The position numbers and the translations under genes are program-made. Below the pieces are notes generated by a model that was not told where the DNA came from, did not search any database, and saw nothing but the letters and a program-made list of their open reading frames with translations. Positions 13,186-35,859 of a stretch of DNA of 64,000 nucleotides are shown here, one piece after another. The DNA comes from Dehalococcoidia bacterium (GTDB lineage Bacteria; Chloroflexota; Dehalococcoidia; Lucifugimonadales; CAYTFF01). The DNA lies in the NCBI GenBank assembly GCA_965249025.1, contig OZ252215.1, positions 622,600 to 686,599 on the forward strand, read 5' to 3'. Positions within the stretch are counted from its first letter, which is position 1, and each line of letters begins with the position of its first letter.

Positions 13186-13195
13186 GGGGTTAAGA

Positions 13196-19454: not shown

Positions 19455-19481
19455 AGTGCCCGCCCCTCAAAGGCGGGCACT
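19455..19481. other. Isolated GC-rich hairpin
   Basis: AGTGCCCGCC-cctcaaa-GGCGGGCACT, 10-bp perfect stem, no U-tract on either strand. Confidence 0.5.
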
Positions 19482-19774
19482 CTTAGGAGGAGGATGGGAA
19501 AGATATGACATACATGTAGCACTTTTGGCACAGTCTGTCAATATCCTTAAGTGTAGTGAAAGACTTTACATAAACCCAATAGCAATATCATGTTTCTTAC
19601 TGAGAATGCACTAGATCACGTAATCACATGTGACGCTGCAAACGGAAATGTAGCGAAACAGCTTTTCGGGACCTTCACTATTGAGTCATGGCTCTCCAAA
19701 ATAGTCTTGTTACCCTCAGATTGGAAAATGGCAATTCAACAAATATCTCCCAAAGGATTACCTTTTGGAGCTGA

Positions 19775-19797
19775 GAGACGGGAAAGTCGAACTCCCC
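19775..19797 (-). repeat. Displaced partial copy of the tmRNA 3' end (putative distal att site)
   Basis: GAGACGG-gaa-AGTCGAACTCCCC versus GAGACGG-gggag-AGTCGAACTCCCC at 35509-35533. The 13-bp core is identical (19785-19797 = 35521-35533). Confidence 0.7.
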
Positions 19798-20271
19798 CTG
19801 AAACGCAAGCTATCCGTACTGGTGGTCACAGCTCAGTATGCTAGGAGGCTTGACGTAGTTCGCGTCGTTTAACTGCGATCGTGGTCTACTTTTTCCGCGC
19901 TGCACGCATGAGCACGATCTTGCTACGTAGTCAGCTAATCATCTGTAACAAGTTGCGTGGTTGCCTAAGGACATCGATTATTCTGATAAAAAATTAGATG
20001 GACCGTTTCTGAAGTGTCTCCAGTCTTCAACAATTGTCAAACTTGAACTTAGTGACTGTTAAGCTTGCTGCAATTTGTTCATTCTAACGTTGTGCCGAAC
20101 TGCTACATTCTTAGACATTGATGGTGAGTGTGGCCGGCATACATATTGCCTCTGATTCTGTAAACTATTGAATCAGGTAGGTTAAAACTACCAGAACGAG
20201 TACCCCCAGACTTCCTCATCGGAGCATCTCAATAATGAGGGACTTAAACGAGAGAGCAAAGGAGGAAGTCA

Positions 20272-21876
20272 ATGATGAGTAAGATAAGTCAAAGGGGGTG
20301 GTTACTTTTGTGGATAGCAGCGTTCACCTTGTTTGCAGCGGCCTGCGCTGGGTCATCCGATGCCCATGGAAGCGGTGAAGACGGCATTGCGAATGAGGCG
20401 TTGACCGAAAGTAGTGCCAGTTCAATCACTAATGAGAACCCAGTCTCATATGACCCTGCTGTGGCCCAGAACGAAGCCTACTGGTACTCACGTTACAACC
20501 TTGGCCACCTAGTAATGAGGTCCGGGATGGGGATTCAATGGATGCCGCCGATGGAAAAGGTTCAAGAAATGATGAAAATGGCCCAAATATCAGCCGGTCC
20601 CTCGAACCCATACCTTGTGGAAGCCATTTACAGTTCAGGAGACCCACACTTGATCCAAGACTTTAACGGAGATGGAACCGATTTCTCGAACTTCCGTTGG
20701 GACCAGGCAAAGATGGACAAAGTAGTGACACCTCAAGCAGTGGCTTACACTATGATCAAGGAAGTTATCTGGGCCAAGTCTTTCGCCAGCGATGTGGAGG
20801 GAGCGAATCCCATGAATCACTTTAGGGCCTTGGTCCTAAGCGCCGAGGCTGCCGCACAAGCAAGGTTTGCCATGATGAATCTCCAGTCATCAGATGGCTT
20901 GCTTATAGCTGGCTGGAGGGATGGTCAGGTAACGAATACCAATGCAACTCCTCTGGATCAGATGGTTATGTTATGGGCGCTATCGGAACTGTCAGACTAT
21001 GCTGGCGGCGACTATAGATGGTACGGAGTACCTCTTACGAAAGAGCAAGCTTTAACCTGGGCAGATGAACTTCTGGTTGCTGTAGGCGAGCATCTGAGGA
21101 CTCGACCGGATTTTCTGACAGGCATGCCGTCTCGAGATCTAGGAGTCGCCCTTGCTGCACTCTCTTCATATGTCGGGTATGCTTAAATCGGTGAAGGCAA
21201 GACATTAGCCATTGAAACATTCATACCACAGTTGACTCTCGAACTTGTCGGCAGAATAGATAACGATGGCCGGCTTGAGACTGAAGGCAACTATAGTCAA
21301 GTTGTTACACAAGCGTCTGCAATCCAGGGACTCGTATTCGCCTTTCACATAACTGCTGAACAAATGCTTCAAGATGCAGTGCTAAACCTCTGGGATCACA
21401 TGGACACTCTGTGGGACGATAACGCCGAAGTTTACGTTCCCTCTCGCGGAGATACCAGCTACCGGTACACGGCTAGGGATGTCGGCGATATAGTGGGAGC
21501 TTTCAATGCTTTGCTTAATGGACTATCCATAGACGTGAGTGAGCGGTTCGCCAAATTCTTCCACTCAGCGGTCAGCGAATCAGGGCTTCAGATAGCTGAG
21601 GGGGAACCTACGGGGGGTGACAAGGATACAGACACTATCCCTGGTCCAATAGCCGCCGGAGGTCCTTTCGGTCAAGGGCCCGTGCTGGCGACAGAGGTCG
21701 TCTATCGCACCTCGTCGAATACATGGGAAGTTATTGACTCGCGATTTACAACAGCTTATGCCATGTCTGCCAATAATCAATTCATGTGGATCGGAACATG
21801 GGCAGGCAAACCTTCGGTCACAGGACATGGAATCCCTAACAACTCGATTTTCGAGGCCTCACTATCTGCTAAATAG
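20272..21876 (+). pseudogene. Secreted lipoprotein of unknown function (helical, possible alpha/alpha barrel) split by one in-frame TAA at 21184-21186
   Basis: ORFs 20272-21186 and 21232-21876 are in the same frame and the 15 codons between them are open. Lipobox AAAC. Met-rich N-terminal region. Confidence 0.7.
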
Positions 21877-21932
21877 CAAATAATCGACAAGACCACAATA
21901 TTACTCTTGCGCACGTTTTGGTAGCTTACGCA

Positions 21933-21972
21933 AAAGGACCAATGGTGTCAGTCAAAATGCCATTGGTCCTTT
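21933..21972. terminator. Hairpin between convergent genes
   Basis: AAAGGACCAATGG ... CCATTGGTCCTTT, 13-bp stem. Confidence 0.65.
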
Positions 21973-22029
21973 CACTCAAATTAGGGCACGCCCAGGATAA
22001 GAATTTCAGTCCCTGGATTGTCCAGTGAT

Positions 22030-23130
22030 CTAGCTACTGGTTACGGTGATGTTACCATGCATGCCCGCCTCTTCGTGGCCGGTTATCGTGCAAATCGAGT
22101 CGTAGCTCCCCGCTATAGCGGGGATCAGGTAGAGGTCTGCCTGCTCACCCGGAAAGATCTCGACTGCCCTGAAGTAGGGTGCCTTGATCTCTCCCGAACT
22201 GTCCTGCGCTTTGCGGAACGCCACCGATTGGTAGAATGCCTCTGCGGTGAAGTAGTGTTTCACCGCCCCCACATTGACGATCTCCAGCTTGTAGGGCTTT
22301 CCCACCTCGAATGTGAGGTTCTCTGGCGCGAACGAGAATTCGCCCATCTCGACCCGCACCGTCTGCATTGTATCCCAATCGGCTGCGGAGACAAGATCAG
22401 AGGCATTCTGCACCCAATCGCCGTCTGCCACCGGGACTATGATCGGCGCCGGTGAGACCGGTATGCTACCGGTCACGGTGATGTTACCATGCATACCCGC
22501 CTCTTCGTGGCCGGCTATCGTGCAAATCGAGTCGTAGCTCCCCGGGATAACCGGCACGAAGTACAGGTCAACTTGGTCTCCAGGGAAGACCTCTATCGCC
22601 TTGAAGTAGGGTGCCTTGAATTCTCCCTCAGAGGTTTGTGCTTTGCGGAACGCCACCGATTGGTAGAACGCCTCTGCGGTGAAGTAGTGTTTCACCGCTC
22701 CCACATTGACGATCTCCAGTTTGTAGGGCTTCCCTACCTCGAATGTGAGGTTCTCTGGCGAGAACGAGAACTCGCCCATCTCAACCCGCACCGTCTGCAT
22801 TGTATCCCAATCGGCCGCGGAGACGAAGTCGGACGCGTTCGCCACGTACGTCCCACCCGCGTGCACGTGGCCAGCGTCGGATGTCGTGGTCCCTGGCTGT
22901 CCTGCCAAGCCCTGAGCGCCTGTGGCGCCGATTGGACCGGTGGGACCAACATCACCCTGCAGACCAGCAGGACCGATGGGACCAATATCACCCTGGGGAC
23001 CGGCTAATCCAGCAGGGCCGCCTGCACCCAGGCCACCAGTAGGGCCAGTTTCACCTGTACATGCGGCCAAGGCGACCATTAGAAGTGCCAAGGCACCTGT
23101 ACTCAACAAAACCTGCATCCATTTCTTCAT
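22030..23130 (-). CDS. Lipoprotein with collagen-like stalk and two tandem type-1 (blue) copper cupredoxin domains
   Basis: Lipobox LAAC, (G-X-Y)n run, two near-identical domains (144-aa period), each with KHY...ICTI(A/T)GHEEAGM (His/Cys/His/Met). Start ATG 23130 follows GGAGG. Confidence 0.85.
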   Translation of the reverse strand: MKKWMQVLLSTGALALLMVALAACTGETGPTGGLGAGGPAGLAGPQGDIGPIGPAGLQGDVGPTGPIGATGAQGLAGQPGTTTSDAGHVHAGGTYVANASDFVSAADWDTMQTVRVEMGEFSFSPENLTFEVGKPYKLEIVNVGAVKHYFTAEAFYQSVAFRKAQTSEGEFKAPYFKAIEVFPGDQVDLYFVPVIPGSYDSICTIAGHEEAGMHGNITVTGSIPVSPAPIIVPVADGDWVQNASDLVSAADWDTMQTVRVEMGEFSFAPENLTFEVGKPYKLEIVNVGAVKHYFTAEAFYQSVAFRKAQDSSGEIKAPYFRAVEIFPGEQADLYLIPAIAGSYDSICTITGHEEAGMHGNITVTSS

Positions 23131-23203
23131 CCTAGCCTCCTTTCGAACTGCTTTATTAAGACTGATAACGGCCAATGCGTATTCTTTGTATCATGCAACG
23201 CTG

Positions 23204-23251
23204 TTACAGTTCCGTAACAAGGCAAGGTAGGGCCATTACATCTCCATTACA
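23204..23251 (-). promoter_or_regulatory. Four-half-site direct-repeat operator (T(T/A)ACA at offsets 0/11/32/43), copy 1
   Basis: ttaca 23204, taaca 23215, ttaca 23236, ttaca 23247. Lies upstream of the cupredoxin gene. Confidence 0.6.
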
Positions 23252-23728
23252 ATCGCTGAGAGGAACGTACCTCACAGCCCCTTCGCCGATCCTGTCTTGG
23301 CAATTCTCTCCATTTGCCAATTATTGGGGTTCTCTAAGCCGTTGCCAGTGGCTTGAATTCGAGACTTGTTGAAGGAGTAGTTGTTCTCAATATGGCTGAA
23401 GGGCGCCCTTTCTGCGTGAGCCTCCAATTGCACCAACAAGTGCCGCCTTTTGAATTGGTCTAGATAGCGCGAGTCGAATTAGTGTGAACACATAACACAA
23501 GGTGCTGCTGGTGAGATTCTGGAGCAAGCAGACAGTGGGAGGGGTAGCCTACACATGCAGATGCACAACTCCGTGCCTGGCTACCTGGTCGTGGGCATCG
23601 ATTTTGTAAAGAAGCACAGTCGACAAGGGCCCGTACGCTGAGGAGCGTTTGGAATTCTAGGGCCCTTTGACGGCCCCTGGTCTCCCACGTACCAAACAAC
23701 ATGTTCTCTTCATCAGGCACTCTGTCAT

Positions 23729-24145
23729 TTAGCCTGGTTGGGTGCTGCCAGAACGCGTGAAAAGAGTTGACAGAATGGTCGGCAGCCTGCTCCACAGTTC
23801 ATTTCCCTTTAGCAGGCATGCAATTGCCCCGAGTTCCAGGGCATGTTTGCGCATATCAGGGTCTAATTCCATGCTCATCAAGACTATATTGTGGTCAGGA
23901 TTCTCACTCCTAAGAGCTGCCATAGCATCGAGTCCATTCATCATCGGCATGCGAATATCCATTAAGATCAAGCTTGGGCTTAACTGTCGAGCCTGTTCCA
24001 AGGCCTCTAGTCCATTGGCTGCTTCTCCTATGTTCAGGCATCTAGGTTCAGCTTGCATCATGCCAACTATGGCTTTTCGAAAGCGAGTTGAGTCATCGAC
24101 GACCAATATCGTGTACTGCCCAGCGCAGTCTTTAAGTCGCTTCAT
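23729..24145 (-). CDS. Stand-alone response-regulator receiver (CheY/NarL-like)
   Basis: ILVVDD, LILMDIRMP, LLK. No output domain. Confidence 0.85.
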   Translation of the reverse strand: MKRLKDCAGQYTILVVDDSTRFRKAIVGMMQAEPRCLNIGEAANGLEALEQARQLSPSLILMDIRMPMMNGLDAMAALRSENPDHNIVLMSMELDPDMRKHALELGAIACLLKGNELWSRLPTILSTLFTRSGSTQPG

Positions 24146-24357
24146 GATGTATCTCCTTTCTTATTTCCCTTGCTGGCTCTACAGATGGCCGTCGATCAAT
24201 CAGACTTTCCCTTATATTTCCCCTCACAAGCTCGAAATAGCTGAGGCGGGGTGTCACCATATGGGGCGACGCCTCTCGCAATCTCTAAGCATCCGTTTGT
24301 ACTAGCCCTGCAGCAATACCTTATGTGTTGAAGATTCCAGCTTAGAGCGAGGACACA

Positions 24358-24405
24358 TTACAGTTCCATAACAATCGTCAGAGAAGTTGTAACAATCCCA
24401 TTACA
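24358..24405 (-). promoter_or_regulatory. Four-half-site direct-repeat operator, copy 2
   Basis: ttaca 24358, taaca 24369, taaca 24390, ttaca 24401. Spacing identical to copy 1. Confidence 0.6.
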
Positions 24406-24423
24406 ATCATAGGCAAGAAAGAG

Positions 24424-24455
24424 AAGAGGGGGAGTCTGAGATGACTCCCCCTCTT
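24424..24455 (-). terminator. Intrinsic terminator after the OmpR-family regulator
   Basis: AAGAGGGGGAGTC-tgagat-GACTCCCCCTCTT, followed on the minus strand by CTCTTTCTT. Confidence 0.7.
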
Positions 24456-24477
24456 ACGATCGGCAAGGAACCAATGC

Positions 24478-25158
24478 CTACATGCTGCTTGCAAACATAT
24501 ACCCTACTCCTGGAACTGTTGAGATGAACTTGGGGCTTTGCGGATCCTCTTTAATCTTTTGGCGCAGGCGCCAAACTGTAACTCTAAGCACCTCGTGCTC
24601 GCCGACGTACCCGTGCCCCCAGACCTTTTGGAGAAGATCGTCACTAGTAATGGCTCTGCCTGCATTGGTTGAAAGGTAGTGTAGGACTCGGTACTCTGTT
24701 GGAGACAAGCGAACTTCCTGATTCTGCACGGTCACGCGGTGGGTAAGAAAGTCCACCCTTAGGGTTCCGGATGTGAAAGATGTCTGCTCCTGGGTAATCT
24801 CCGCTAATCGAGCCCGTCGTAGAACCGCCTCGACTCTAGCTAGCAACTCCTGTGCGGAGAATGGCTTTACAATGTAGTCATCGGCCCCTAGCCGCAGCCA
24901 TTTCACTTTGTCATCATCGCTGCCCAGAGCGGTGAGCATGATAACGGGAACTGTAGAGAACTCGCGGATGCGGGCGCACACCTCAAAGCCGTCTTGGCCT
25001 GGAAGCTTGATGTCCAAGATCACGAGGTCGATGGGCCGTTGGGCAATGGCGGTAAGCGCCTCCTCGCCGGAACCCTCACAACCAACATGGTAGCCTTCCG
25101 CTTCCAGATTGAACTGGATCAGGCGCAAGTACCTGGGCTCGTCGTCGACCACCAACAC
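24478..25158 (-). CDS. OmpR/PhoB-family response regulator
   Basis: LVVDD, ILDIKLPG, GADDYIVKPF, winged-helix LSPTEY...TVPGVGY. An ATA at 25171-25173 behind GGAGGAGG may be a mutated ATG. Confidence 0.9.
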   Translation of the reverse strand: MLVVDDEPRYLRLIQFNLEAEGYHVGCEGSGEEALTAIAQRPIDLVILDIKLPGQDGFEVCARIREFSTVPVIMLTALGSDDDKVKWLRLGADDYIVKPFSAQELLARVEAVLRRARLAEITQEQTSFTSGTLRVDFLTHRVTVQNQEVRLSPTEYRVLHYLSTNAGRAITSDDLLQKVWGHGYVGEHEVLRVTVWRLRQKIKEDPQSPKFISTVPGVGYMFASSM

Positions 25159-25169
25159 GTATTCGCCGG

Positions 25170-26657
25170 CTATCTCGTACCTCCTCCATCGGGGGACGCC
25201 GACAGACCCTCATAGTCTGTTGCCTCGTCCACAAACCCATCTACGATGGGAAGAGTGAATCGGAACGTGCTGCCCGCGTTCGGGTTGCTCTCCACCCACA
25301 ATTTACCGTCGTGGGACTCGACGATGCCCTTGCAGATAGCAAGGCCGAGGCCGGCGCCACGAATGCCCTTTCGCTGTGAGCTCTCACCACGGTAGAATGC
25401 TTGGAATATCCGTTTCTGCTCGTACGCAACGATGCCGTAGCCCTGATCCCTGATACTGATCACAGCATTTCCGTCTTCGCTTGACACGGTAACGCTGATA
25501 GTCGATGCAGGGTCTGAGTACCTAGCAGCGTTCTCCAACAGGTTGCGGAGAACCTGCTCAATCCTCACTGGGTCAACTAGCACGCCGATCCCAGCGCTAT
25601 CGAGTTCGGTTACAAGCGCATAGCCCCTGTCATGGAGATAGGGCGAGATTTTATGTAGAGCGCCTTCTACGAGTTCTTTCAAGGATATCTCTCACCGACT
25701 CATTTGAAGCCTGCCTGCTTGTAGTCTTGAGGCATCCAGAAGATCATCAATCATCACCTGGAGTTTGCTTGACTCGTCAGAAATGACCCGTAGGAATTCT
25801 TTACTCGTGGTGGCATCCACCTATATATCATCCCTCAGCAGTGTGGAGGCGTATCCTTTGATGAACCCCAGGGGCGTTCGCAGTTCGTGGGATATTGTGG
25901 AGATGAACTCGGCCTTCATCCGATCCAACTCCTGCTGCGCCGCCACCCGAGCCAGCTCACCCCGTTGGCGGTCAATGGTAAGACTGGCTCCTTTGACCAT
26001 CCCTACCAGAATTAAATACATTACCAGCGTGGCAGTCCCGACGATCAACCAACTCCGAAGACGCGCCGCCTGAATCTCTTCTACAAGGGCCTTCGTCTCC
26101 TCGTAGAATTCTACAGCACCTACGATCTCTCCCGTGTTGAACAAACGTAAAGGAGTGTAAGTCTCCTGCAGCCGAGAAAACCATTGCCTCTCGTAGTCGT
26201 TCTCAGGTTCGGATAGATCACTAATGTGAGAAACCGTCTCGCCACGGAGGGCTCCTTGCAATCCACGCCCCACCTGAAAAGTCATACCAACAATCTTTCT
26301 GTGCGGACTGTAGAGGATACGCCCGTTCCGAGACCACACCTTGAACGAAACGATCCTCTGACCCAGTTCAGTTTCGATTAGAAGCCTGTCGAGAGCTTCT
26401 ATTTGATCAGGGCGTAGCTCCCCAGGCTCGCCTAGGTTCTGAAGATGAGGTGACACAGAGCTGGTCACGAAGGAAGCGGTTACCGCCGCCGTGCGAGTCA
26501 TGACACCGCGCTCAATCTGCCTTGTGACCCACCAACCAATGATCAGCAATCCCGTTAGCAAGATGGCAAAGCTCACCAGAGCAAAGCGCTTAGTCAGGCT
26601 GATTTGAGAGAACAGCCTCAACAACCGACTGACTATCACATTGCTTTTCGCAATCAT
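25170..26657 (-). pseudogene. Membrane sensor histidine kinase (HisKA + HATPase) with in-frame TAG (25821-23) and TGA (25692-94)
   Basis: ISHELRTPL H-box, NLLENA, D.G.G and GAGLGL boxes are all in one frame, interrupted by two stops. Confidence 0.85.
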
Positions 26658-26761
26658 GATTGACTACAACCTGGAATCCTAAACATAAGTTTAGTGTAGA
26701 ACCGTCCGTGGGTATTCTACAAGAGTCGCTGGTGGCCTGTCCCAGTTAGGTCCGTTGTTTA

Positions 26762-28213
26762 CTAAGAGAATGAAGTTCCAATTCCTATCAGCCTGTAAAA
26801 CCAACTGCTGATCGCCATGAAGTTTCCGCTAACGAGAAGGACTCCATAGCCAGCAATCAATGTCGCGCTTGCCAGGCCCATCCAGGGTATAACCTTCTCC
26901 ATGCGAAAGAGGAGCGGGAGAACCTTGGCCATAGCTCCAAAGACCAACGGAATGCCCATGCCCAATGAGAAGAGGAAGAGGAGTGTAGCTCCCACCAGCG
27001 GAGACCCGGCCAGTCCTACGTAGAGGACCATCCCAATCAGGACTGCCGAACCGAAGCAGGTCATACATCCGGTGGCAAAGGTCACTCCCACCACCATACT
27101 CTCCCATGGTGAGGTTGTACCACCCTTACGGGCCATCCTGGAAGCGAGCGGCATCTTGCAGACCAGAGGAGCTCTGGCTCTTACGGCGACACGAATCGCC
27201 AGTCCCAAAAGGATGATTCCAGCCCCAACGCTCAAATAGCGCTGCCACAAATAAAATGAGTCCAAGTTGGCCAATTGTTGGGAGCCGTAGCCAATGACAG
27301 CTCCTGCCGATGTATACACGATGGTGAATCCTACGACAAAGAAAAAGGCGGTCTTTACTACTCCTACCCGCGGTCTCAGGCCCTTAGCGGTAGAAGCTTC
27401 TTGCATACTCATACCGGCCATAGTAGGGATGAAGTAAGCCGTTAGCTGAAACAGACAGGGCCACATTGCCGCCAACAGTCCGCCCAACACAGCTAGCACG
27501 GCGACGCCGGACACTGCAGGCACCGGTAGGCCCCTGTTTGGCTGTCCCAGGGCAACATCAGAGCTGGAGTAGTCCTCTGAATACTCCAAAGGCAGCTTCC
27601 ATCTCAAGACATTGCCACTGGATTCGACGCCGTCCGATGCGGTGAACATCATCTCAAAGGTAGTCCCCTGTTCCAAGGCTGAGGAGTCCGCCAACTTGTC
27701 CGCAGAGTAACGTACTACTGTGGAACGGTGGTGAGGGGAATCGGCCATAACTAAGCTCTCAGTAGGCTCCAGCGATTCAGAACCGTTGATCCGCAGGAGA
27801 GGCTGAGGCGGAGTTGGAGGGAGTTCATCGATATGCACAGTCTCCTTTATGTAGAATAAGAGAGATGGCTCGGCCAGGGCGGAAGCGGGTGGCTCTCGCC
27901 TGAGGGCCGAGAAGTACTGAGGAGTCGCAAAAAGAACATCAACTCCTGGTGTTTCGCCATCGTCGACAGGACGCACTCCGTATCGGTTCAGAACACCTAT
28001 CATGTCGCGCCATTGAAGATCAGGCATCACTGCATTGCCAGAGGGAGGAGAGGCAAAGTCGAAATTGAAGATTTGCCCTAATCCAATGACCAAAATTGCG
28101 ACCAGCGGTATTCCAATCAAACCTAGCCACCATTTCCCTCCTCTTGGTAGGAGAGTGCGGAAGCCCCACCCAACCCGTCTAGTAGTGGTCGTCGAATCAG
28201 TGAAGGTGCTCAT
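26762..28213 (-). CDS. CcdA/DsbD-like transmembrane disulfide-exchange protein fused to an N-terminal extracytoplasmic domain
   Basis: MWPCLFQL, FVVGFTIVYTSAG and ATGCMTCFG...LFSLGMGIPL match the CcdA transmembrane core. Confidence 0.75.
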   Translation of the reverse strand: MSTFTDSTTTTRRVGWGFRTLLPRGGKWWLGLIGIPLVAILVIGLGQIFNFDFASPPSGNAVMPDLQWRDMIGVLNRYGVRPVDDGETPGVDVLFATPQYFSALRREPPASALAEPSLLFYIKETVHIDELPPTPPQPLLRINGSESLEPTESLVMADSPHHRSTVVRYSADKLADSSALEQGTTFEMMFTASDGVESSGNVLRWKLPLEYSEDYSSSDVALGQPNRGLPVPAVSGVAVLAVLGGLLAAMWPCLFQLTAYFIPTMAGMSMQEASTAKGLRPRVGVVKTAFFFVVGFTIVYTSAGAVIGYGSQQLANLDSFYLWQRYLSVGAGIILLGLAIRVAVRARAPLVCKMPLASRMARKGGTTSPWESMVVGVTFATGCMTCFGSAVLIGMVLYVGLAGSPLVGATLLFLFSLGMGIPLVFGAMAKVLPLLFRMEKVIPWMGLASATLIAGYGVLLVSGNFMAISSWFYRLIGIGTSFS

Positions 28214-28228
28214 TATATAGACTCCTCT

Positions 28229-29284
28229 CTAATTAGGTAGAAATGCGGCTAAGTGGCTAATAGTAGGAATGTAGATGGCGAGGACGATGGCGACGGCCAG
28301 TGAAAGCCCAATCACCACATTGGCAATTGTAAGTCGAAATAACGGTGAATCCTTGGTGGCCACAGATGCCTCTTCTACCACATCGCTCTTTCTTTCCACA
28401 ATCGATGTACTGCCTCCCGTGACGATGGACAGGGAGGCTAGTCTGAGAGCCTTTGCCATACGCACAGTTAGAACTCCCGACACACCGAGCACGAAGGCTT
28501 TGAACACTATGGTTGCGACATAGTGTGGACCGAAGGGTATGCGCAACATCACGTCCAAATCGAACACTCCCGGCGGCTTTATGGGAGCGCTATAGATAGC
28601 GCTATAGACGCCGCTGGCTGCCAGTAAGAATAGGCTGAAGACAGCAGCAGGGAAGAAAAAGCTTGAGAGTCGTTGGAACACAGGTGGCCTAGAAACTGGA
28701 GGGAGAAACCAGTACGCCACCAGTATCACTGCTGTCATGCCAAACCAGACGATGCCAGCTAAGGTGTGAGATATGCGCACGCCAATAGCCGCGACATCTC
28801 GCCAGTTGAAACTGAAAAAGAGGTCTAGCACCTGCTGACGGACCTCATCAGTGTTAGTCGTTGGACCTATCGGAACCACACTCTCAACGAAACTGACTTC
28901 TCCATCTCCTAGCTCCTCCACCCTGAGAGTCACGTTCCAGGAGCCGAACATTGGGAAGGCAACTTGAGCGGCGTAAAGTCCAGGTTCATTAAGTGGTTCA
29001 AGGAGGACAGGCTCCATTGGTGGACCGCCTCCTTGCCTCTCCGCACTGAGCATGACCTTGGCTTCCTCGACTGGTTCTCGGTCGCCGGTGAACACCACAA
29101 GGACGCGGTATAGACGGCCCAGCGGCTCCTGAGAGTCGGGGGTGAAGGACGAAACCTCAAGGCTTAGCTCCTTCCCATGGGCTTGAACCGCCTGCCCAAT
29201 GGGGGTAACTCCAAGCATCATGAAAAGGACTCCAGTCAGTACGAAGCCTATAATCCAGCGATGTAACATATTTCTAATTCCCAT
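28229..29284 (-). CDS. YtkA/FixH-like Ig domain + CopD-like membrane domain
   Basis: EPGLYAAQVAFPMFGSWNVTL, followed by a TM region with ISHTLAGIVWFG (CopD-type H.LA..W.G) and a C-terminal ISH. Confidence 0.65.
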   Translation of the reverse strand: MGIRNMLHRWIIGFVLTGVLFMMLGVTPIGQAVQAHGKELSLEVSSFTPDSQEPLGRLYRVLVVFTGDREPVEEAKVMLSAERQGGGPPMEPVLLEPLNEPGLYAAQVAFPMFGSWNVTLRVEELGDGEVSFVESVVPIGPTTNTDEVRQQVLDLFFSFNWRDVAAIGVRISHTLAGIVWFGMTAVILVAYWFLPPVSRPPVFQRLSSFFFPAAVFSLFLLAASGVYSAIYSAPIKPPGVFDLDVMLRIPFGPHYVATIVFKAFVLGVSGVLTVRMAKALRLASLSIVTGGSTSIVERKSDVVEEASVATKDSPLFRLTIANVVIGLSLAVAIVLAIYIPTISHLAAFLPN

Positions 29285-29297
29285 AACCCCACGAATC

Positions 29298-29849
29298 TCA
29301 CGGGAAGAACTTCACAATGAACAGGAGGTGTTTTTTGCCTTTCGGCAACTGCACAGTCACGTCCACGGACCAGTCTCCGTACATCAGAAAGGCGAGGGGC
29401 AGGACATAGTGGCCGTCCCCAAGCTTTTGCCCAATTTGGGCGTCAATTCCGTGATCCATAAAGACCATATCGTAAATCAGGTCTACCTCAACGTCGGTGA
29501 CCGGTTGATAATCTTCATTGTTTAGTAAAAAGAGGAGCAGGTCAGTCTGCCAGTCGGGTGGATAAGGAGCGAGGAAAACCTCCGCGGTCTTGTCCTCGCT
29601 CAAGGGAACCCTACCACCATTTCTTATAGCCACAGCTTCTCCATTTTGAACAAAGCCAAGCTGGGCTGAAATAGGATCTATATCTTCTCCTATTGGGCTT
29701 ACCTCTACAGAGACGTTCTGTTGGCTTTGGGGCGTGGCAGATTTGAACTCCACGGAAGGGCCAGTACCAGCACCGCATCCTATTAGCACTAGTGTAGTGC
29801 TAAGCATTAGCATCGTTCCCAGAGTCACCCGTCTTCGTATCATCATCAC
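29298..29849 (-). CDS. Lipoprotein with YtkA/FixH-like domain and Met/His patch
   Basis: Lipobox LIGC, DMVFMDHG, DGHYVLPLAFLMYGDWSVDV. Confidence 0.6.
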   Translation of the reverse strand: MMMIRRRVTLGTMLMLSTTLVLIGCGAGTGPSVEFKSATPQSQQNVSVEVSPIGEDIDPISAQLGFVQNGEAVAIRNGGRVPLSEDKTAEVFLAPYPPDWQTDLLLFLLNNEDYQPVTDVEVDLIYDMVFMDHGIDAQIGQKLGDGHYVLPLAFLMYGDWSVDVTVQLPKGKKHLLFIVKFFP

Positions 29850-29862
29850 ACCTCACACTCCA

Positions 29863-30255
29863 CTAAGGTTGAGTCGCCAGCCATTGGAGATAAGTCGATA
29901 CCGCCTCTACTTTTTCCTGGTTAAGGTTAATGAAATCCATTGCGTCTATAGAATCCAGTGCAAAACGGATGTCACCTGGTGTCTTTCCAAGGATGCTGGG
30001 GCCAATGTTTCCTTTGCCATCGGGGCCATGGCAATATGAGCAGCCTATACCATCTTTTGTTGCGGCATTTTTGAAAATTCTCTCACCAAGTTCAAAGGGC
30101 GTCTCCTCCATTTCGCTACCACTCCCAGGATTTGTCTGGGCTGGTGCCGATGTCGGCGTGGGGTTGGGGTTAGAGCCCGAAGCGGAGCTGCTACCTCCTC
30201 CGCACGCCGCCGCAAGCAATCCGAATATCAACAGCAATGCCATCAAACTGCCCAA
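29863..30255 (-). CDS. Monoheme class I cytochrome c lipoprotein
   Basis: LAAAC lipobox, CSYCH heme motif, distal Met (AMD). Confidence 0.85.
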   Translation of the reverse strand: MGSLMALLLIFGLLAAACGGGSSSASGSNPNPTPTSAPAQTNPGSGSEMEETPFELGERIFKNAATKDGIGCSYCHGPDGKGNIGPSILGKTPGDIRFALDSIDAMDFINLNQEKVEAVSTYLQWLATQP

Positions 30256-30354
30256 TATGTATCGTTTTTACATGCTTTTCCTACCTCTCATCTGCTTCCT
30301 CCGTCGACCTGTGGGCACCCAGCTTTGAAGCTGGGTGCCCACTTCTATACAGAA

Positions 30355-31839
30355 CTACCGGGCTTGAGCTTTTTTAGCCAAAATATCCTGCTGGGCCTGG
30401 AGGGCGCTCCCATGGAGGCCGTTCTGGTCCGCCAGCACTCGGACTGGACAGGCCGAGTTGTACTGCACGAAGGCGCCGTTATGTGTGCTGCCCCCGTTAG
30501 GGCTGGGGATACGAGCCTTCACATAGTCACTAGGGCTGAACTCTCCCCTCGTCTCCCGCTTGGAGAGGTCCAGTATGACCGTCTCGAAGCTGGAGTTGCA
30601 GCTTATCCAAAGCTCGTTGGTCTCTGGGTCTGGGTTCAAGATGCAATGGTCCGCCCGCAGACAGCCTGTGTAGACCTCTCCAAAGGGTCGCGCTCTGCCC
30701 ACCATCCTGGGGTCGACCAGGCCTACGGTGATTCCCTTGTTGTGCGAGCCTTCACCCTTGCCTATGGTGATAATCATGTCCTCTTCCCAGTTCAGGTTGA
30801 GGCCGTATGGCCCTTCCGTGCCTGCCCTGGCAAATTTCACCATCTCCCAGTCGGAGGGGTCTTCTTCGCTCATGTCGATTTTGGCCACTATGCTCTCATG
30901 GCCGCCGGTGTCGTAGGCCGTCTTCCCATCGCCGCTGAAGGCCACAAAGATTGGGCTGCTGTCCTCGATACCGATATTTCGCACGTAGCTCCAGTCCTCG
31001 GTGTCTATGATGGCCACCGTTCCCTGGGCCTCTACGCCGCGAGGCGGCCTAACGCTGTAGAAAAGCCATTTGCCGCTGTGGTCTACAAAGGCCAGGTAGC
31101 CCTCGCCGCGGAGCTCACTGTTAGGCACTGCGCCGACTACCCTGTTGTTGTCGTTGGGGTCCAGAATGTAGGCGCCATGGCGCCAGGAGTAGGCCAGCAC
31201 CCTGTCGTTACCATGATGGTCCACAAAGGACTTGATGTGGTGAGGACGTCCTGGGACCTGGAGGACCTGGGCTAGCTTGCCTGTTCTGGCATTTATAACA
31301 AGGAGCCTGCCAGCCTCTTTGGAACCGCTAAAGGAAGTGCCTGCAGCCGTTGGAATATAAACATACTGGCCATCCGGCGACACGCCAAGTCCATGGGGCT
31401 CGAAGAACTGGCCCTCTACGTCATGGGTCTCCTTGGACTCTTTAGCAGAAGGACCAATGTTGAAGTGGGGCGCCGCCAGGACCTCACGGGTCTTTGCGTC
31501 TATGGCATGGTAGCCGGGCAACGTGACATCGGACGTCAACCCACCGTAGCCGGGACCTTCAGACGCAAAATAGACCAGAGGATGCTTCCCTGCATCCCAA
31601 AGCGCTGGCCCACTGGAGTCGAAGGTCTGAAGTAACCTTACCCCCATCAATTGGGACCACTCGGTATCCCATCCAGTGGGAGCCGCACTTGCGGGCGGCT
31701 CAGGCTGCCAGTTTGCTACCTGAACTATGGATTGTCCCTCACCGCCGCCGCAGGCCGCAGCCAAGATACCGACTAGAGCAATGAGAATTGCTGTAGCGCT
31801 GGCCAGCAGCAGTGGCTTTTTCATAATGTGCGTTTTCAT
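30355..31839 (-). CDS. His/Tyr-rich beta-propeller lipoprotein (YncE/cd1/NosZ-propeller-like fold), function unknown
   Basis: LAAAC lipobox. Repeated blade motifs EPHGLGVSPDG, RPHHIK, GYLAFVDHSG, PIFVAFSGDG, GPYGLNL, ADHCILNPD, STHNGAFV. Start ATG 31839 follows GAAGGGAG. Confidence 0.7.
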   Translation of the reverse strand: MKTHIMKKPLLLASATAILIALVGILAAACGGGEGQSIVQVANWQPEPPASAAPTGWDTEWSQLMGVRLLQTFDSSGPALWDAGKHPLVYFASEGPGYGGLTSDVTLPGYHAIDAKTREVLAAPHFNIGPSAKESKETHDVEGQFFEPHGLGVSPDGQYVYIPTAAGTSFSGSKEAGRLLVINARTGKLAQVLQVPGRPHHIKSFVDHHGNDRVLAYSWRHGAYILDPNDNNRVVGAVPNSELRGEGYLAFVDHSGKWLFYSVRPPRGVEAQGTVAIIDTEDWSYVRNIGIEDSSPIFVAFSGDGKTAYDTGGHESIVAKIDMSEEDPSDWEMVKFARAGTEGPYGLNLNWEEDMIITIGKGEGSHNKGITVGLVDPRMVGRARPFGEVYTGCLRADHCILNPDPETNELWISCNSSFETVILDLSKRETRGEFSPSDYVKARIPSPNGGSTHNGAFVQYNSACPVRVLADQNGLHGSALQAQQDILAKKAQAR

Positions 31840-31924
31840 ACGATATTTTCTCCCTTCACTGTGATTAAGGTTTTTTCCACGTTTTACTCTCATTCATGGG
31901 ACCATCTTTTCACCTCCGTGTGTC

Positions 31925-32311
31925 TCAGCTAAAGTGTTCTGTTCTCTGGTCCAGGAATTCGCTCGCTGAGTGGTGATCATCCTGTAATGCCTCCAACAGT
32001 CCTTCGAGGTCGGTTTGAAGAATGCGCTTCATCCGAAATATCTCTATGCCCGTTTGGTTTAGGTTCAGGGCTATGACCCTTGCTTTGGGGTGTTCCTCCA
32101 ACAATCGAGTAACTATTCCTTCGCCCATTGAGGCATCGCTGGAGTCGAGGATAATTGCGTCAGGAGACAGACACTTAATCTTGGCGGCTGCTTCGGGGGC
32201 ATCTGCCGCCACAATGGAAACTTTAAGGTCATTCAGGTCTTGTAACAGCTTTTGAACTCCGGCCACCAGGAGTGAGTGGTTACTCAGTAAGACGATCTGT
32301 TTAGGTTTCAT
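31925..32311 (-). CDS. Small atypical receiver-like protein
   Basis: IVLLSNHSLLVAGVQKLL...DAIILDSS resembles a NarL receiver without the acidic pocket and without an HTH. Confidence 0.55.
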   Translation of the reverse strand: MKPKQIVLLSNHSLLVAGVQKLLQDLNDLKVSIVAADAPEAAAKIKCLSPDAIILDSSDASMGEGIVTRLLEEHPKARVIALNLNQTGIEIFRMKRILQTDLEGLLEALQDDHHSASEFLDQRTEHFS

Positions 32312-32421
32312 TGGACGACCTCTAAGGAATACTGGGTATGTCTTAGTTACACTCGATACCGTTATGTGAAAGAAATCACAAGAACAGAACACTTGAATTG
32401 GTAGTTTTGACCTACGAAAGA

Positions 32422-32451
32422 AAGTAGGCCCTTAACATAAAGGGCCTACTT
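32422..32451. terminator. Hairpin downstream of the NarL-family regulator
   Basis: AAGTAGGCCCTT-aacata-AAGGGCCTACTT, 12-bp stem. Confidence 0.6.
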
Positions 32452-32487
32452 GTTTCAATAGCGGAAGGCTTGATATAGAAATTGACT

Positions 32488-33150
32488 CTATGGGGGTGGC
32501 TTGGTGGTAAACCCGTGCTCCAAAGCCCAACCCACGACCTGTGCTCTGTTTCGGAGGTGCAATTTGCTTAGGATGTTCTTCATGTGGTAGTTGACCGTAT
32601 TCTCAGAGATGTAAAGGGCTGCAGCTATTTCTTTGTTAGTGGCTCCACGCGCCAGTTGCTCAAGCACGTCTTGCTCTCGCTTGGTTAGACCCGCATCCAA
32701 CTCAGAGCCATGTTTCTGTTCCTTAAGCCGGGCGAATTCCTCAAGGAGCTTCTTGGCCAGGCCAGGGGACATAACAGGCTCGCCGCGACCGACACGGTTC
32801 ATTAGGTCTGCGAACTCCTCCTCTCGGAGGTTCTTAAGAAGATAACCTTCGGCGCCGCTCTTGATTGCTTCAAACAGATCTTGCTCGTCGTCGGAGACCG
32901 TTAGAATGATCACTTTGATGTCAGCGGAATCTGCTTTAATGGCTCGTGTTGCCTCCAGACCGTTGGGGCTTGGCATGTTGATGTCCATGAAAACCAGGTC
33001 TGGTTGGAGGTTCTGTGCCATTGAAATGGCCTCCTCTCCATTGCCCGCCTGGCCCACTACCTGTAGGCCCCAGGCCTTGAGGAGACTGGCTAGCCCAGCA
33101 CGAAATAGGGCATGGTCATCTGCTAGTAGTACCCTCATTCCCTCAGCCAT
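32488..33150 (-). CDS. NarL/LuxR-family response regulator
   Basis: LLADDH, FMDINMP, GYLLK, LTKRE...NKEIA...TVNYHMKNILSKL. Confidence 0.92.
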   Translation of the reverse strand: MAEGMRVLLADDHALFRAGLASLLKAWGLQVVGQAGNGEEAISMAQNLQPDLVFMDINMPSPNGLEATRAIKADSADIKVIILTVSDDEQDLFEAIKSGAEGYLLKNLREEEFADLMNRVGRGEPVMSPGLAKKLLEEFARLKEQKHGSELDAGLTKREQDVLEQLARGATNKEIAAALYISENTVNYHMKNILSKLHLRNRAQVVGWALEHGFTTKPPP

Positions 33151-35002
33151 CGTCCTCTCTGTGCAAGAGCGGTACTAGCACCTCTACTGTAGTTCCCTTC
33201 CCCGGAGCGGCATCGATAGCAAGAGTTCCATCCATTGCCTCTGCTCTCTCTCGCATGGTATGAAGGCCAAATCGAGGCCATCCTGTTGATGGGAGTCGCT
33301 TCTGTTCAAACCCTTCGCCATTGTCGGCTATTGTGACTCGAAGTCCGTCTCCAATCATCTCAAAGTTGACAGTAGCGGTGGATGCCCTTGAATGCTTTCT
33401 CACGTTGGTTAGCGCTTCCTGGACTATACGAATCAACTGAATTTCAGCAGAGGGGGTCAATTGGGAGCGCTCCGCATCCGGCGACGCGTTGATATCGACT
33501 TGTATACCGGACATCTCCATGTAGCTTTGAGTGTACTCCCTTAGAGCAGCAAGCAGGCCTTCTTTGCGGCGGGCGGCTATCCTTAGCCCAAGGATACCCT
33601 CGCGAACATCGGCATACAAGTCTCTGGCTATTTCTTCCATCTTCGTGAGCTCCTCATGTGCCTCAACGAACTGCTGGTTAGAGAGAAATTTCTTCACTGC
33701 AATGGTTTGGGTATTGATATAGCCCAACAATTGAGCCATTCCGTCATGCATTTCCCTAGCTATGCGCTCTCGCTCTTGGAGGACCGCTAGGTCTTGAACC
33801 TGTTGGTAGAGGTGAGCATTTTCTATGGCTAGAGCCATCCATTCTCCGATGCTTTCAAGAAGACGAATCTCATCTTGTGAACTTATTGCACTCTCTGAGA
33901 AGGCGGCCAAAGTTAGAACACCAATTACTCTGTTCTTATAGCGTAAAGGCAAGCCGCAAAATGTATGATATCCAGCATCGATTACCCTCTTGCGAAGGAA
34001 GATATCCCTAGTGGGCAGGTCATGTGTCACCAAGGGCTCTTGCGTCTCCGCTACTATGCCCGGTATGCCCTCGCCTTTGCGAAACCGGGTCCGCTCCATG
34101 AAGGACTCCTGATGTTCACCTCGGTGACATCTCATGGTCAGATCTTCGTCGTCTTCCGTAAGCCAGACCTCAGCGCCGTCAGCCGACGTGACATCTATGA
34201 TGGTATCCAGCGTTCTGCCGAGCAATTCGTCCAAGTCAAAGGAAGAGGTGGCTACCTTGCTTACAGCAAGTAATGCAATAAGATCACGGTTTTGTCGTTG
34301 AGACTTTTCGTAGAGGACGGCATTCCTTATGGCCATACCTAACTGGCCGCCGATGCCTTCCAGGAATTCTTGGTCATTGTCGTTAAAATGGCGCTCCTGG
34401 TGAGAGGCGATTGCCAAGATACCATTTACTTCTCCCTCTGACTTCAGAGGCGCGCTCATGAGCGACCTGAACCCTTCGCGTCTGGCAAATTCTACAAGTC
34501 TAGGGTCATTGAAGACGTCTTCAATGATAACTGGCCGACCTGTGCTCACTACCTCTTGGGCGATAGGATCGTCCGCAAGTTTGGCCTTTCGTATCTTACG
34601 CTCCAATTCCTCCGTGAAGCCTCTGTGACAAACTATGGAGTGCTCCTCTTCTTCCAAGTCTACTAGGCAAATTAAACCAGCGTCTACCTTCAAGTTTGAC
34701 AAAACATGATCCAGGCTGGTATTTAGCAGCTCTTGTAGGCGCAATTTAGCGGCTGCCGCCTTAGCTATGTCATTTAACGAAGAAAGCTGGCGATTCTGCT
34801 CGGTGATTCTCCGTTGTAGCTTTGCGATGGACCCAAACATAACGTAAGTGAAGATAATCACCGCAACGGCAATTGCGACATGAACCCCAAAGAAGCCTGG
34901 GACGCTATGCAGCTCTTTAGCGAAAATACTATGTCTCAATAAGTCAACAGATGCCAGAAACAAGATAGGCAGCACTATGGCCAGCTATCTTAGAGCTGAC
35001 AT
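33143..35002 (-). pseudogene. Double-GAF HisKA_3 sensor kinase with an amber stop at codon 6
   Basis: ERERIAREMHD, EALTNVRKH, DNGEG. ATG 35002 reads MSALR*LAIVLPIL (TAG at 34985-87, likely from TGG). Restart at GTG 34975 is possible. Confidence 0.75.
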
Positions 35003-35159
35003 GTTTACACCACATCTATGGGAGATGTAGATTCCTTTTATAATGCTCATAGTGGACAGTCGTTCTTAGGTGCCTTCTGGTTACAATAATTGTAACAGAA
35101 TCCCATTGCTGGAAACCCCTGTACCAGGGTGGTTGTGCCCTACCAATTTTGGTAGGGTT

Positions 35160-35572
35160 CACAGAAGACTGTATGGGCAGACAGAAGAGATACATGGACA
35201 TGGAGCTAGAGATACTGATAGTGCCCGAGGCCAACGCGGCTGAGGAAGCAGGGAAGCTACTATCTAACCGCCTACATTATGGGCTGAGGCCAACCTGGAG
35301 GAGAGACGTAAGCTACTACTCACAATGCTAGACGGGGTCTATGTGGATTCCAAGGAGGAGAGGCCATAGTAGCTATCAGGCCCAAGCCAGCATTCAGGGC
35401 AATCTTTGAGGTAGTAACATCGCGTGAAGAGTCTGAAGTCCTACTCATAAAAGAGGAGCCTCTAGATACGAATCCAGAGGCTGAAGTGGATCCCTTGTGT
35501 TTCTGGTGGAGACGGGGGAGAGTCGAACTCCCCGTCCAGAAGACTCCCCGTTGGGATATGCTACAGGCTTAG
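35160..35572 (+). pseudogene. C-terminal remnant of a site-specific (serine) recombinase overlapping the ssrA 3' end
   Basis: Across two frameshifts reads LEILIVPEANAAEEAGKLL / PTLWAEANLEERRKLLLTMLDGVYVD / IVAIRPKPAFRAIFEV...CFWWRRGRVELP. I recognise this as resembling Dehalococcoidia ssrA-island recombinase C-termini (from memory, not searched). The N-terminal catalytic domain is absent. Confidence 0.65.
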
Positions 35573-35859
35573 TCGGCAATTATTGTCTCGTCTCTAAAGC
35601 CCTCTGCCGACTAAGGGTCCTAAAAACCAGCCGACATCTCTTTGGCCTACCCTATCGGCGTTGGGAGGACCGCACCTCGATCCGTCGGCGCCCTAGCCGC
35701 TCCCTCGAGGACAGGAACGGTAGAACGTAGCTGCCTTTTTAGGCAGCTAGTGCGAGGTTTTTCTCGCCAGTTACTTTTTTTGCCACCTGATTAACGAGGT
35801 AGATGGCACCTCGGCCTGCGATCCCACAAGGCCATCCCCTGTCGAATCCGCGCGTCCCC
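35504..35859 (-). ncRNA. ssrA: tmRNA (transfer-messenger RNA); tag peptide (A)GEKNLALAA* at 35768-35739
   Basis: 5' GGGGACGCGCGGATTCGACAGGGG, 3' GGAGTTCGACTCTCCCCCGTCTCCACCA, resume context GTAACT|GGC, tag ending LAA, upstream TGGTATAAT. Confidence 0.95.

What the first reader, a model, noticed from the sequence alone, without database searches (positions are those of the whole stretch)
19775..35572. ssrA-integrated island whose recombinase reading frame is split across the att sites
Seen: AGTCGAACTCCCC at 19785-19797 repeats the tmRNA T-loop region at 35521-35533. A recombinase remnant reads ...WWRRGRVELP through the ssrA end. At the distal site the same VELP frame continues LKRKLSVLVVTAQ...*. 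Known: Dehalococcoides carry ssrA-targeted islands with a recombinase adjoining ssrA. Inference: excision would rejoin the recombinase to its own C-terminal tail, and this island is now immobilised with Cu/heme rather than dehalogenase cargo.
Basis: partly seen in the sequence, partly recalled or inferred. Interest (0 to 1): 0.7.

Follow-up and report, generated by a model that had tools for sequence, protein, structure and literature searches.

The report
Decayed tmRNA-gene island, split integrase
A 15.7-kb mobile island carrying copper and redox genes once inserted into the end of the tmRNA gene of a Dehalococcoidia bacterium using a serine integrase whose own gene spans the attachment site; here the integrase is dead, and the design is already known from Dehalococcoides.

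Summary
The tmRNA gene (35504-35859, minus strand) has its last about 25 bases repeated at 19773-19797. A recombinase remnant reads through the ssrA end. The same frame continues at the distal repeat as LKRKLSVLVVTAQYARRLDVVRVV*.

This is a decayed ssrA-specific genomic island of the DsiB large-serine-recombinase type. Only residues 419-555 of about 556 of the recombinase remain, with two frameshifts. The integration module is gone and two cargo genes are broken. The cargo block (GAF kinase, LuxR regulator, DsbD-like protein, YtkA-like proteins, a CxxCH lipoprotein and unknowns) recurs in two other families. In one of them it lies beside a tmRNA-type repeat.

The split-frame reading is supported. 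Intact relatives read through ssrA. A copy elsewhere in this genome has the recombinase end, core and LKRKLSVLVV tail contiguous. McMurdie et al. (2011) already described this overlap and proposed completion on the circle.

One result goes beyond the finding. Across the family the tail encoded beyond the core is under protein-level selection. In 30 of 65 distinct cases it ends in (L/V)AA-stop, like an ssrA degradation tag. The window's own tail lacks that ending.

The parts
19747..19770 (-). Imperfect hairpin (CTCCAAAAGG-TAAT-CCTTTGGGAG on the ssrA-sense strand) directly after the relic ssrA end. It may be an old terminator or the end of an older island.
   Evidence: Read from the sequence. 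The same hairpin plus core plus tail unit recurs at genome position 582.5 kb. The simple terminator scan did not call it.
19773..19797 (+). Distal direct repeat (attL core). It is a degenerate copy of the last about 25 nt of ssrA, read as its complement.
   Evidence: D11: 84% without gaps, 13 nt exact; 0.11 expected by chance.
19798..19872 (+). P' arm of the former attP. In the recombinase frame it encodes the displaced tail LKRKLSVLVVTAQYARRLDVVRVV and a TAA stop.
   Evidence: It is 89% identical over 47 nt to the sequence that directly follows a recombinase C-terminus at genome position 2917917-2917963. It aligns codon by codon with LKRKLPVLVAA* of relative G086.
20272..34975 (.). Cargo genes. 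They comprise a lipoprotein split by TAA, a tandem cupredoxin on a collagen-like stalk, a receiver protein, an OmpR-type regulator and a histidine kinase with two in-frame stops. The rest is a DsbD-like membrane protein, two YtkA-like proteins, a 130-aa CxxCH lipoprotein, unknown 512-aa and 155-aa proteins, a LuxR-type regulator and a GAF histidine kinase.
   Evidence: Pfam scans; motif and stop check; synteny with G114 and G030.
35158..35572 (+). Pseudogene remnant of a DsiB-type large serine recombinase. It equals residues 419-555 of about 556, has two frameshifts, and its frame runs through the att core and stops inside ssrA antisense.
35457..35482 (-). Terminator-like hairpin plus T-run 22 nt after the ssrA 3' end. 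It is embedded antisense in the recombinase remnant and is supplied by the island.
   Evidence: The stretch is conserved in the paralogous remnants at genome positions 602466 and 2917844.
35504..35533 (+). Proximal repeat (attR core), equal to the 3' end of the live ssrA gene.
35504..35859 (-). ssrA (tmRNA gene), tag peptide GEKNLALAA. It is the only tmRNA gene in the genome.

Best explanation
Window 19773-35533 is the fossil of an integrative element of the ssrA-specific genomic island type, driven by a DsiB-like large serine recombinase. In live members the attP site lies inside the 3' end of the recombinase gene. The P arm is the recombinase C-terminal coding region and also carries, on the other strand, a copy of the ssrA 3' end and a terminator. 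The P' arm encodes the last 12-25 codons. Recombination with the ssrA 3' end rebuilds a complete ssrA from element DNA. It pushes the old ssrA end to the far side of the island. It also cuts the recombinase frame, so the integrated gene ends in a few codons read from ssrA antisense, while its own tail lies at the distal repeat. Excision, or integration of another island next door, puts a tail back. In this genome the element later decayed. The integration module and the first about 418 codons of the recombinase were deleted, and the rest acquired two frameshifts. The distal repeat lost 2 nt, and two cargo genes were inactivated. The cargo is therefore now fixed chromosomal DNA. Shown here: the anatomy, the homology, the decay, and the split in relatives. 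Inferred: the order of events and the recombination itself.
For: The repeat and tmRNA are established. The remnant aligns to residues 419-555 of an intact 556-aa protein that has Resolvase, Recombinase and Zn_ribbon_recom domains. Relatives of the same order (G002, G009) carry intact recombinases whose frames run through the ssrA end and stop inside it. Empty ssrA sites in other relatives instead show a terminator right after CCA. Across distinct junctions in the collected loci (mostly Dehalococcoidia MAG loci, plus this genome), the recombinase end meets ssrA in 44 cases and a non-ssrA tail in 36. Copies in this genome at 2917905 and 602523 show the recombinase end, core and tail contiguous. 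Tail-type recombinases sit in the Mom - ParB - small resolvase - large recombinase module, in tandem arrays, as McMurdie 2011 describes. The cargo block is syntenic in G114 (52-79% aa identity). In G030 it lies 5.8 kb from a truncated resolvase and a tmRNA-type repeat. The 512-aa cargo gene is found in only 8 of 201 genomes of the order. Decay is shown.
Against: There is no compositional signal. Island GC is 52.1% against 54.2% for the genome (23rd percentile), and tetranucleotide distance is at the 60th percentile. No close relative is held, so an empty site with the same flanks could not be shown. The outer 5 nt of the relic (where CCACCA is expected) do not match ssrA, so the left flank may be the end of an older element rather than the original chromosome.
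Confidence: 0.85

Rival explanations
1. The overlap of the recombinase frame with the att site is incidental. The P' arm is only a DNA binding site, the real protein ends functionally before the core, and whatever follows is untranslated or irrelevant read-through. McMurdie et al. called this the 'trivial explanation'.
For: Tails of integrated genes vary in length and sequence. The copies in this genome have no conserved stop: the tail is open for 24 to more than 90 codons. The first three tail codons are conserved at all three codon positions, as expected for a DNA site.
Against: In nine short tails, entropy by codon position is 0.66/0.46/1.20 (permutation p=0.006). The final Ala-Ala uses all four Ala codons and all three stop codons occur. 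Three tail length classes all end in (L/V)AA-stop. In total 30 of 65 distinct tails end in AA, against 1% of long frames in this genome. A second clade reads the core in another frame and has its own conserved tail, PET(R/K)(I/V)LCFV*.
Confidence: 0.2
2. The distal repeat is a chance match or a stray tRNA-like fragment, and 19.8-35.5 kb is ordinary vertically inherited chromosome.
For: Composition is indistinguishable from the genome. The 13-mer alone has about a 0.1 chance expectation. Core-like copies also occur far from ssrA in this genome.
Against: The flank beyond the repeat is homologous to attP-type junctions in this and other genomes. A recombinase remnant abuts ssrA. The cargo is patchy and island-associated elsewhere.
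Confidence: 0.04
3. The unit between the two repeats is not one element but a composite. An older island or chromosomal segment may have become trapped when a later element integrated and was then mostly deleted, so the cargo and the recombinase remnant would have different origins.
For: Further core copies of at least three junction types lie upstream at genome positions 582.5, 602.5, 611.8 and 619.2 kb, which shows repeated integrations. The integration module is entirely missing. Tandem accretion is documented for this family.
Against: The distal P' arm and the proximal remnant belong to the same subfamily as the contiguous copy at 2917905. In G030 the GAF kinase end of the same cargo block also faces a resolvase remnant and a repeat.
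Confidence: 0.15

Closest known systems
Dehalococcoides and Dehalogenimonas ssrA-specific genomic islands with the DsiB/DsiA integration module (McMurdie et al. 2011, PMC3146451; PMC13390414)
   Same: The target is the 3' end of the single-copy tmRNA gene. There is a direct repeat of about 20-25 bp. A large serine recombinase of about 540-560 aa sits next to ssrA, with its 3' end overlapping the repeat and its stop codon outside the island. Islands occur in tandem arrays, and relatives carry the Mom, ParB and small-resolvase module. The paper already suggests the gene may be complete only on the circle or next to another island.
   Different: The host is a 3.3-Mb Dehalococcoidia genome, not a 1.4-Mb Dehalococcoides. 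The cargo is cupredoxin, DsbD-like, YtkA-like and two-component genes, with no reductive dehalogenases. This copy has lost the module and most of the recombinase. The evidence for protein-level selection on the displaced tail, and its LAA-type ending, is not in that paper.
Integrases whose genes extend across attP: myxophage Mx8 IntP/IntX and SSV-type 'suicidal' integrases of archaea (cited in PMC4383910; PMC7253208)
   Same: The attachment site lies inside the integrase reading frame. Integration therefore alters the C-terminus (Mx8) or splits the gene (SSV).
   Different: Those are tyrosine recombinases; this is a serine recombinase. SSV splits the gene near the middle. Here only the last 12-25 codons are displaced.
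Integration-dependent immunity of mycobacteriophages such as BPs (PMC3694055)
   Same: attP lies inside a gene, so integration removes a C-terminal ssrA-like degradation tag. [quoted passage not shown]
   Different: There the split gene is the repressor and the integrase is a tyrosine recombinase with an unsplit gene. Here the split gene is the integrase itself. The tag function is only inferred from sequence.
SCCmec CcrAB of staphylococci
   Same: A large serine recombinase pair moves a cargo cassette into the 3' end of a single-copy essential gene. McMurdie et al. use it as the mechanistic model.
   Different: The target is orfX (rlmH) rather than ssrA. The ccr genes do not span the attachment site.

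Membership tests
ssrA-specific genomic island (DsiB type, McMurdie 2011) | Lies immediately downstream of the single-copy ssrA gene | tested here: met
   This is the only tmRNA gene in the genome. The island starts at the ssrA 3' end.
ssrA-specific genomic island (DsiB type, McMurdie 2011) | Bounded by ssrA and a direct repeat of about 20 bp of its 3' end | tested here: met
   19773-19797 against 35509-35533: 13 nt exact and 21/25 without gaps.
ssrA-specific genomic island (DsiB type, McMurdie 2011) | DsiB-type large serine recombinase gene at the ssrA-proximal edge, with its 3' end overlapping the repeat | tested here: met
   Met as a pseudogene remnant only: residues 419-555 of 556, 47-86% identity per segment, and a frame that runs through the core.
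ssrA-specific genomic island (DsiB type, McMurdie 2011) | Integration module (small DsiA resolvase, ParB, Mom, RecF-like) | tested here: not met
   Pfam scans of the main ORFs between the repeats find none of these. The module is present in relatives' islands. McMurdie et al. also describe islands without modules.
ssrA-specific genomic island (DsiB type, McMurdie 2011) | Tandem arrangement with further repeats within about 100 kb | tested here: met
   Same-strand core copies lie at genome positions 582.5, 602.5, 611.8 and 619.2 kb, that is 39-76 kb from ssrA.
Large serine recombinase (Resolvase + Recombinase + Zn_ribbon_recom) | Catalytic resolvase domain and recombinase/zinc-ribbon DNA-binding domains present | tested here: not met
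   The window remnant starts at residue 419, beyond all three domains. Intact homologues have all three.
attP-inside-gene integration switches (Mx8, SSV, BPs type) | Attachment core lies inside a reading frame, so integration changes the encoded C-terminus | tested here: met
   Integrated genes end in ssrA antisense. attP-type and tandem junctions end in a different, conserved tail.
attP-inside-gene integration switches (Mx8, SSV, BPs type) | Tyrosine recombinase | tested here: not met
   The family has Pfam Resolvase/Recombinase domains, so it is a serine recombinase family.
attP-inside-gene integration switches (Mx8, SSV, BPs type) | The displaced C-terminus is a proteolysis tag | tested here: inconclusive
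   30 of 65 distinct tails end in (L/V/M)AA, with wobble-only variation, and clpX is present. No stability data exist, and the window's own tail does not end in AA.

The most novel reading that the evidence does not exclude
In the DsiB family the tail encoded beyond attP may be a translated, selected ssrA-tag mimic (...VLLAA, VLVAA, VTVAA-COOH). If so, the integrase would carry a ClpXP-type degron only when attP is intact, that is on the free circle or at a tandem junction. It would lose the degron on integration into ssrA. Integrase stability, and hence the balance of integration against excision, would then depend on integration state. This would be a serine-integrase counterpart of integration-dependent immunity, with the twist that the element targets the gene encoding the tag it mimics.
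Probability: 0.35. Interest if true: 0.7.

Novelty: new member of a known kind. Interest (0 to 1): 0.42.

Why it matters
For this genome, it explains why a copper and redox gene cluster with its own regulators sits next to ssrA. It marks that cluster as horizontally acquired and now fixed. It also shows that ssrA-specific islands carry non-dehalogenase cargo in larger-genome Dehalococcoidia. For the family, the data turn a 2011 speculation into something testable. The displaced tail is under protein-level selection and often looks like a degradation tag. A simple stability and recombination assay could therefore show whether serine integrases can sense their own integration state through their C-terminus.

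Tried and rejected
- **Composition:** GC and tetranucleotide profiles do not set the island apart, so they neither support nor refute foreign origin.
- **Empty-site comparison:** the nearest genome held is a 71%-complete genome of the same family with only 73% ssrA identity. No informative empty site with shared flanks exists.
- **Viral contigs:** neither the single protein nor the family alignment found a relative in IMG/VR. This gives no evidence for a phage-like or free form.
- **Dyad symmetry:** GAGACGG...CCGTACT around the last CC of the core looked like a crossover centre in the window copy. It is not conserved in the G002-type attP, so I dropped it. The crossover can only be placed somewhere within the shared 26-30 nt.
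- **tRNA genes:** I first suspected the dispersed WWRRGRVELP-like hits were antisense tRNA genes. None coincides with a tRNA.
- **Remnant defects:** I first read the remnant as one frameshift plus stops. tblastn shows two frameshifts and three frames.
- **Own-genome copies:** none of the DsiB-like copies in this genome is intact.
Full report
**What is in the sequence**

ARAGORN and Rfam both place one tmRNA gene at 35504-35859 on the minus strand, with tag GEKNLALAA. It is the only tmRNA gene in the 3.28-Mb single-contig genome that holds the window. Its 3' end is therefore at 35504. Read on the plus strand, that end is TGGTGGAGACGGGGGAGAGTCGAACTCCCC.

The repeat finder pairs 19773-19797 with 35509-35533: 21 of 25 bases without gaps and 13 exact. 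The 13-mer occurs only at these two places in the window. With one mismatch allowed, 0.11 matches are expected by chance.

- ...CFWWRRGRVELPVQKTPRWDMLQA, with the stop at 35570-35572.
- ...VELPLKRKLSVLVVTAQYARRLDVVRVV, with the stop at 19870-19872.

**The recombinase is a small fossil**

tblastn with an intact 556-aa homologue gives three collinear segments in three different frames: 35158-35268, 35271-35357 and 35360-35545. They cover residues 419-455, 457-485 and 486-555. So about 418 N-terminal codons are gone, including the Resolvase, Recombinase and zinc-ribbon domains found in intact members. The remaining part has two frameshifts.

No other copy of this family is intact in the genome. 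A second remnant lies at genome position 601.6-602.5 kb. All other serine recombinases are only 21-30% identical.

A terminator-like hairpin with a T-run lies on the minus strand at 35482-35457, 22 nt after the ssrA end and inside the remnant. The island therefore supplies the ssrA terminator as well as the last bases of ssrA.

**Why the distal repeat is an att site and not chance**

The 47 nt that run from the core into the tail are 89% identical to genome position 2917917-2917963. There they directly follow a paralogous recombinase C-terminus...PLDTNPEAQEDPLCLWWRQGRVELFLKRKLSVLVVVA.... That is the arrangement expected of an attP site or of a junction between two tandem islands.

A whole-genome scan finds about a dozen core-like copies. 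Five lie on the same strand, 16-76 kb from ssrA, at genome positions 582.5, 602.5, 611.8, 619.2 and 642.4 kb; the last of these is the window's distal repeat. This pattern is typical of repeated integrations.

**Relatives**

In 27 of 31 related genomes the tmRNA gene was found, and several carry extra copies of its 3' end. The ssrA flanks of these relatives fall into three groups:
- G002 and G009 have intact recombinases of 556 and 522 aa. Their frames run through the ssrA end and stop inside it (WWRRGRVELPVQETL*, WWRRGGVEPPVQKAPR*).
- G019 has a remnant like the one in this window.
- Genomes without an island show a terminator hairpin directly after CCA.

G002 also has two further repeats, 11.4 and 14.8 kb away. 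Each is followed by LEHGI(K/R)(V/I)LLAAA*.

A search of species-representative genomes returned 77 loci, nearly all labelled Dehalococcoidia, Dehalococcoidales, SAR202, Chloroflexota or Dehalogenimonas. Among distinct junctions in the collected loci (these, the relatives' loci and this genome), 44 join the recombinase end to ssrA and 36 join it to a non-ssrA tail.

Gene contexts of tail-type recombinases show Mom, ParB_N, a small resolvase and the large recombinase, sometimes twice within 20 kb. This is the integration module and tandem layout described for Dehalococcoides.

**Cargo**

Pfam gives the following between the repeats:
- a tandem cupredoxin with collagen-like repeats;
- a receiver protein and an OmpR-type regulator;
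- a histidine kinase split in two;
- a DsbD-like membrane protein and two YtkA-like proteins;
- a LuxR-type regulator and a GAF histidine kinase;
- several proteins with no family.

The kinase carries two in-frame stops. The 130-aa lipoprotein has one CxxCH motif. A lipoprotein gene is interrupted by TAA.

The 512-aa unknown protein occurs in only 8 of 201 genomes of the order. The block from the GAF kinase to the DsbD-like gene is collinear in G114 at 52-79% amino-acid identity, and partly collinear in G030. In G030 it lies 5.8 kb from a truncated resolvase and a tmRNA-type repeat followed by LKREFHVLLAA*. The cargo block therefore appears in tmRNA-type island contexts in more than one family.

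Composition gives no signal. GC is 52.1% against 54.2% for the genome, and the tetranucleotide distance is at the 60th percentile.

**What was already known**

McMurdie et al. [quoted passage not shown] Islands at ssrA are also reported in Dehalogenimonas.

Integrases that extend across attP are known from Mx8 and SSV viruses. Removal of an ssrA-like tag by integration is known for a phage repressor.

Earlier notes of this scan report the same design in about 56 other genomes, mostly Patescibacteria. I treat those notes as leads only.

**What goes beyond the finding**

McMurdie et al. left open whether the tail matters. I collected the tails that follow the core where it is not joined to ssrA.

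*Protein tails.* Among 120 homologues from the protein search, three length classes end the same way:
- ...VELHLEHGIKVLLAAA*
- ...VELHLNTYLRRPFSAMELVGVGVLAA*
- ...IGLRRKHNQRLNGAGQSSTVPVTVAA*

*DNA of the short tails.* DNA for 13 distinct tails was retrieved. The nine short tails, aligned by codon, give the following:
- The first three tail codons are conserved at all three positions, as expected of a DNA site.
- The rest vary mostly at third positions. Entropy by codon position is 0.66/0.46/1.20 (permutation p=0.006).

Across all the retrieved tails, the closing Ala-Ala uses GCA, GCC, GCG and GCT, and all three stop codons occur.

*Order-wide pattern search.* A search for the core plus the start of the tail hit 26 of 401 genomes, in 23 of 145 genera. 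The reversed control pattern gave no hits. Thirteen of about 26 distinct tails again end in AA.

*Pooled count.* In all, 30 of 65 distinct tails end in AA, against 1.0% of long open frames in this genome. These tails are related to one another, so the binomial figure overstates independence. The wobble pattern and the three length classes argue for selection on the peptide.

The endings VLLAA and VLVAA match the last residues of tmRNA tags in these lineages, such as ...LALAA and ...RVLVAA. clpX is present in this genome.

A second clade reads the same core in another frame (FLVETGESRTP...). It has its own conserved tail, PET(R/K)(I/V)LCFV*. A conserved tail is therefore general to the family, while the LAA ending is specific to one clade.

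**Limits for this window**

The window's tail aligns codon by codon with LKRKLPVLVAA* of G086. It has one extra codon, Thr where Ala is expected, and CAG where the others have a stop. The other copies in this genome read VLVV(T/V)AW... and have no shared stop. All are attached to dead recombinases. The degron reading therefore rests on relatives, not on this locus.

The outer 5 nt of the relic do not match the CCACCA end of ssrA. The adjacent hairpin recurs at the 582.5-kb site. The left flank may therefore be the end of an older element rather than the original chromosome.

**Verdict**

The object is a decayed, immobilised member of a known class of tmRNA-gene islands, with unusual cargo and in an unusual host. 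The most interesting result is at family level: the displaced integrase tail is a selected peptide that often mimics an ssrA tag. This still needs experimental testing.

Noticed in passing
own genome C1: 1228580, 1233067 (minus strand); 1388355, 1393594, 2280538 (plus); 2618981 (minus); 2917935 (plus): Copies of the ssrA 3'-end core plus P'-type tail lie far from ssrA, some in pairs 4.5-5.2 kb apart. Some are preceded by a hairpin (AAAAGGxCGGCCTTTT) and others by recombinase C-terminal remnants. They may be relics moved by rearrangement or integrations at secondary sites.
   Followed up: partly
own genome C1: 611789 and 619207 (outside the window, 3-11 kb to its left): Two further repeats share only the first 17-19 nt of the core and then continue with different arms: CCTTGATC...CCTTCAATATT and CCTGTCTCAGAAG. 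These arms recur in other genomes' loci (L076/L089 and L087). The 619207 copy follows a remnant of a recombinase only about 30% identical to the DsiB type. At least three recombinase lineages with different crossover points seem to have used this ssrA.
   Followed up: partly
window 25173-26657 (minus) and 20272-21876 (plus): Two cargo genes are inactivated. The OmpR-linked histidine kinase has two in-frame stops inside its HisKA region. The Met-rich lipoprotein gene is interrupted by a single TAA.
   Followed up: yes
window 35457-35482 (minus): The terminator-like hairpin that now follows ssrA is encoded antisense within the recombinase's C-terminal coding region (...EEPLDTNPEAE...). It is conserved in the paralogous remnants, so one stretch of DNA serves as both protein-coding sequence and terminator.
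   Followed up: partly
L018-L025, L048, L058, L072, L083 (MAGs CBDEFX01 and CBDAOG01): Some Dehalococcoidia genomes carry many dispersed copies of a related recombinase. One 90%-identity cluster has 262 member sequences. Matches are stretched to about 2.3 kb, which suggests an insertion in the gene, and the long shared tail reads HLEHELRLAGLEIDGG.... These copies look as if they multiply like a transposon rather than sit only at ssrA.
   Followed up: no
L016 (G009:C5:306000-312000): A second, nearly identical intact recombinase copy ends at a partial ssrA 3' end (WWRRGRV*) about 70 kb from the true ssrA. It lies next to smpB and a tRNA-like T-arm fragment.
   Followed up: no
proteins P0061, P0073, P0076, P0105, P0108, P0118 and their ssrA-joined relatives: One clade of the family reads the same ssrA core in a different frame (FLVETGESRTPRP...ILQA* when joined to ssrA). 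Where it is not joined to ssrA it has a conserved tail, PET(R/K)(I/V)LCFV*.
   Followed up: partly
window 1-19772: The DNA to the left of the island (SBP, SDR, molybdo-hydroxylase and amidohydrolase genes) lies between two tmRNA-type repeats, at genome positions 619207 and 642367. It may itself be an older, fully ameliorated island.
   Followed up: no
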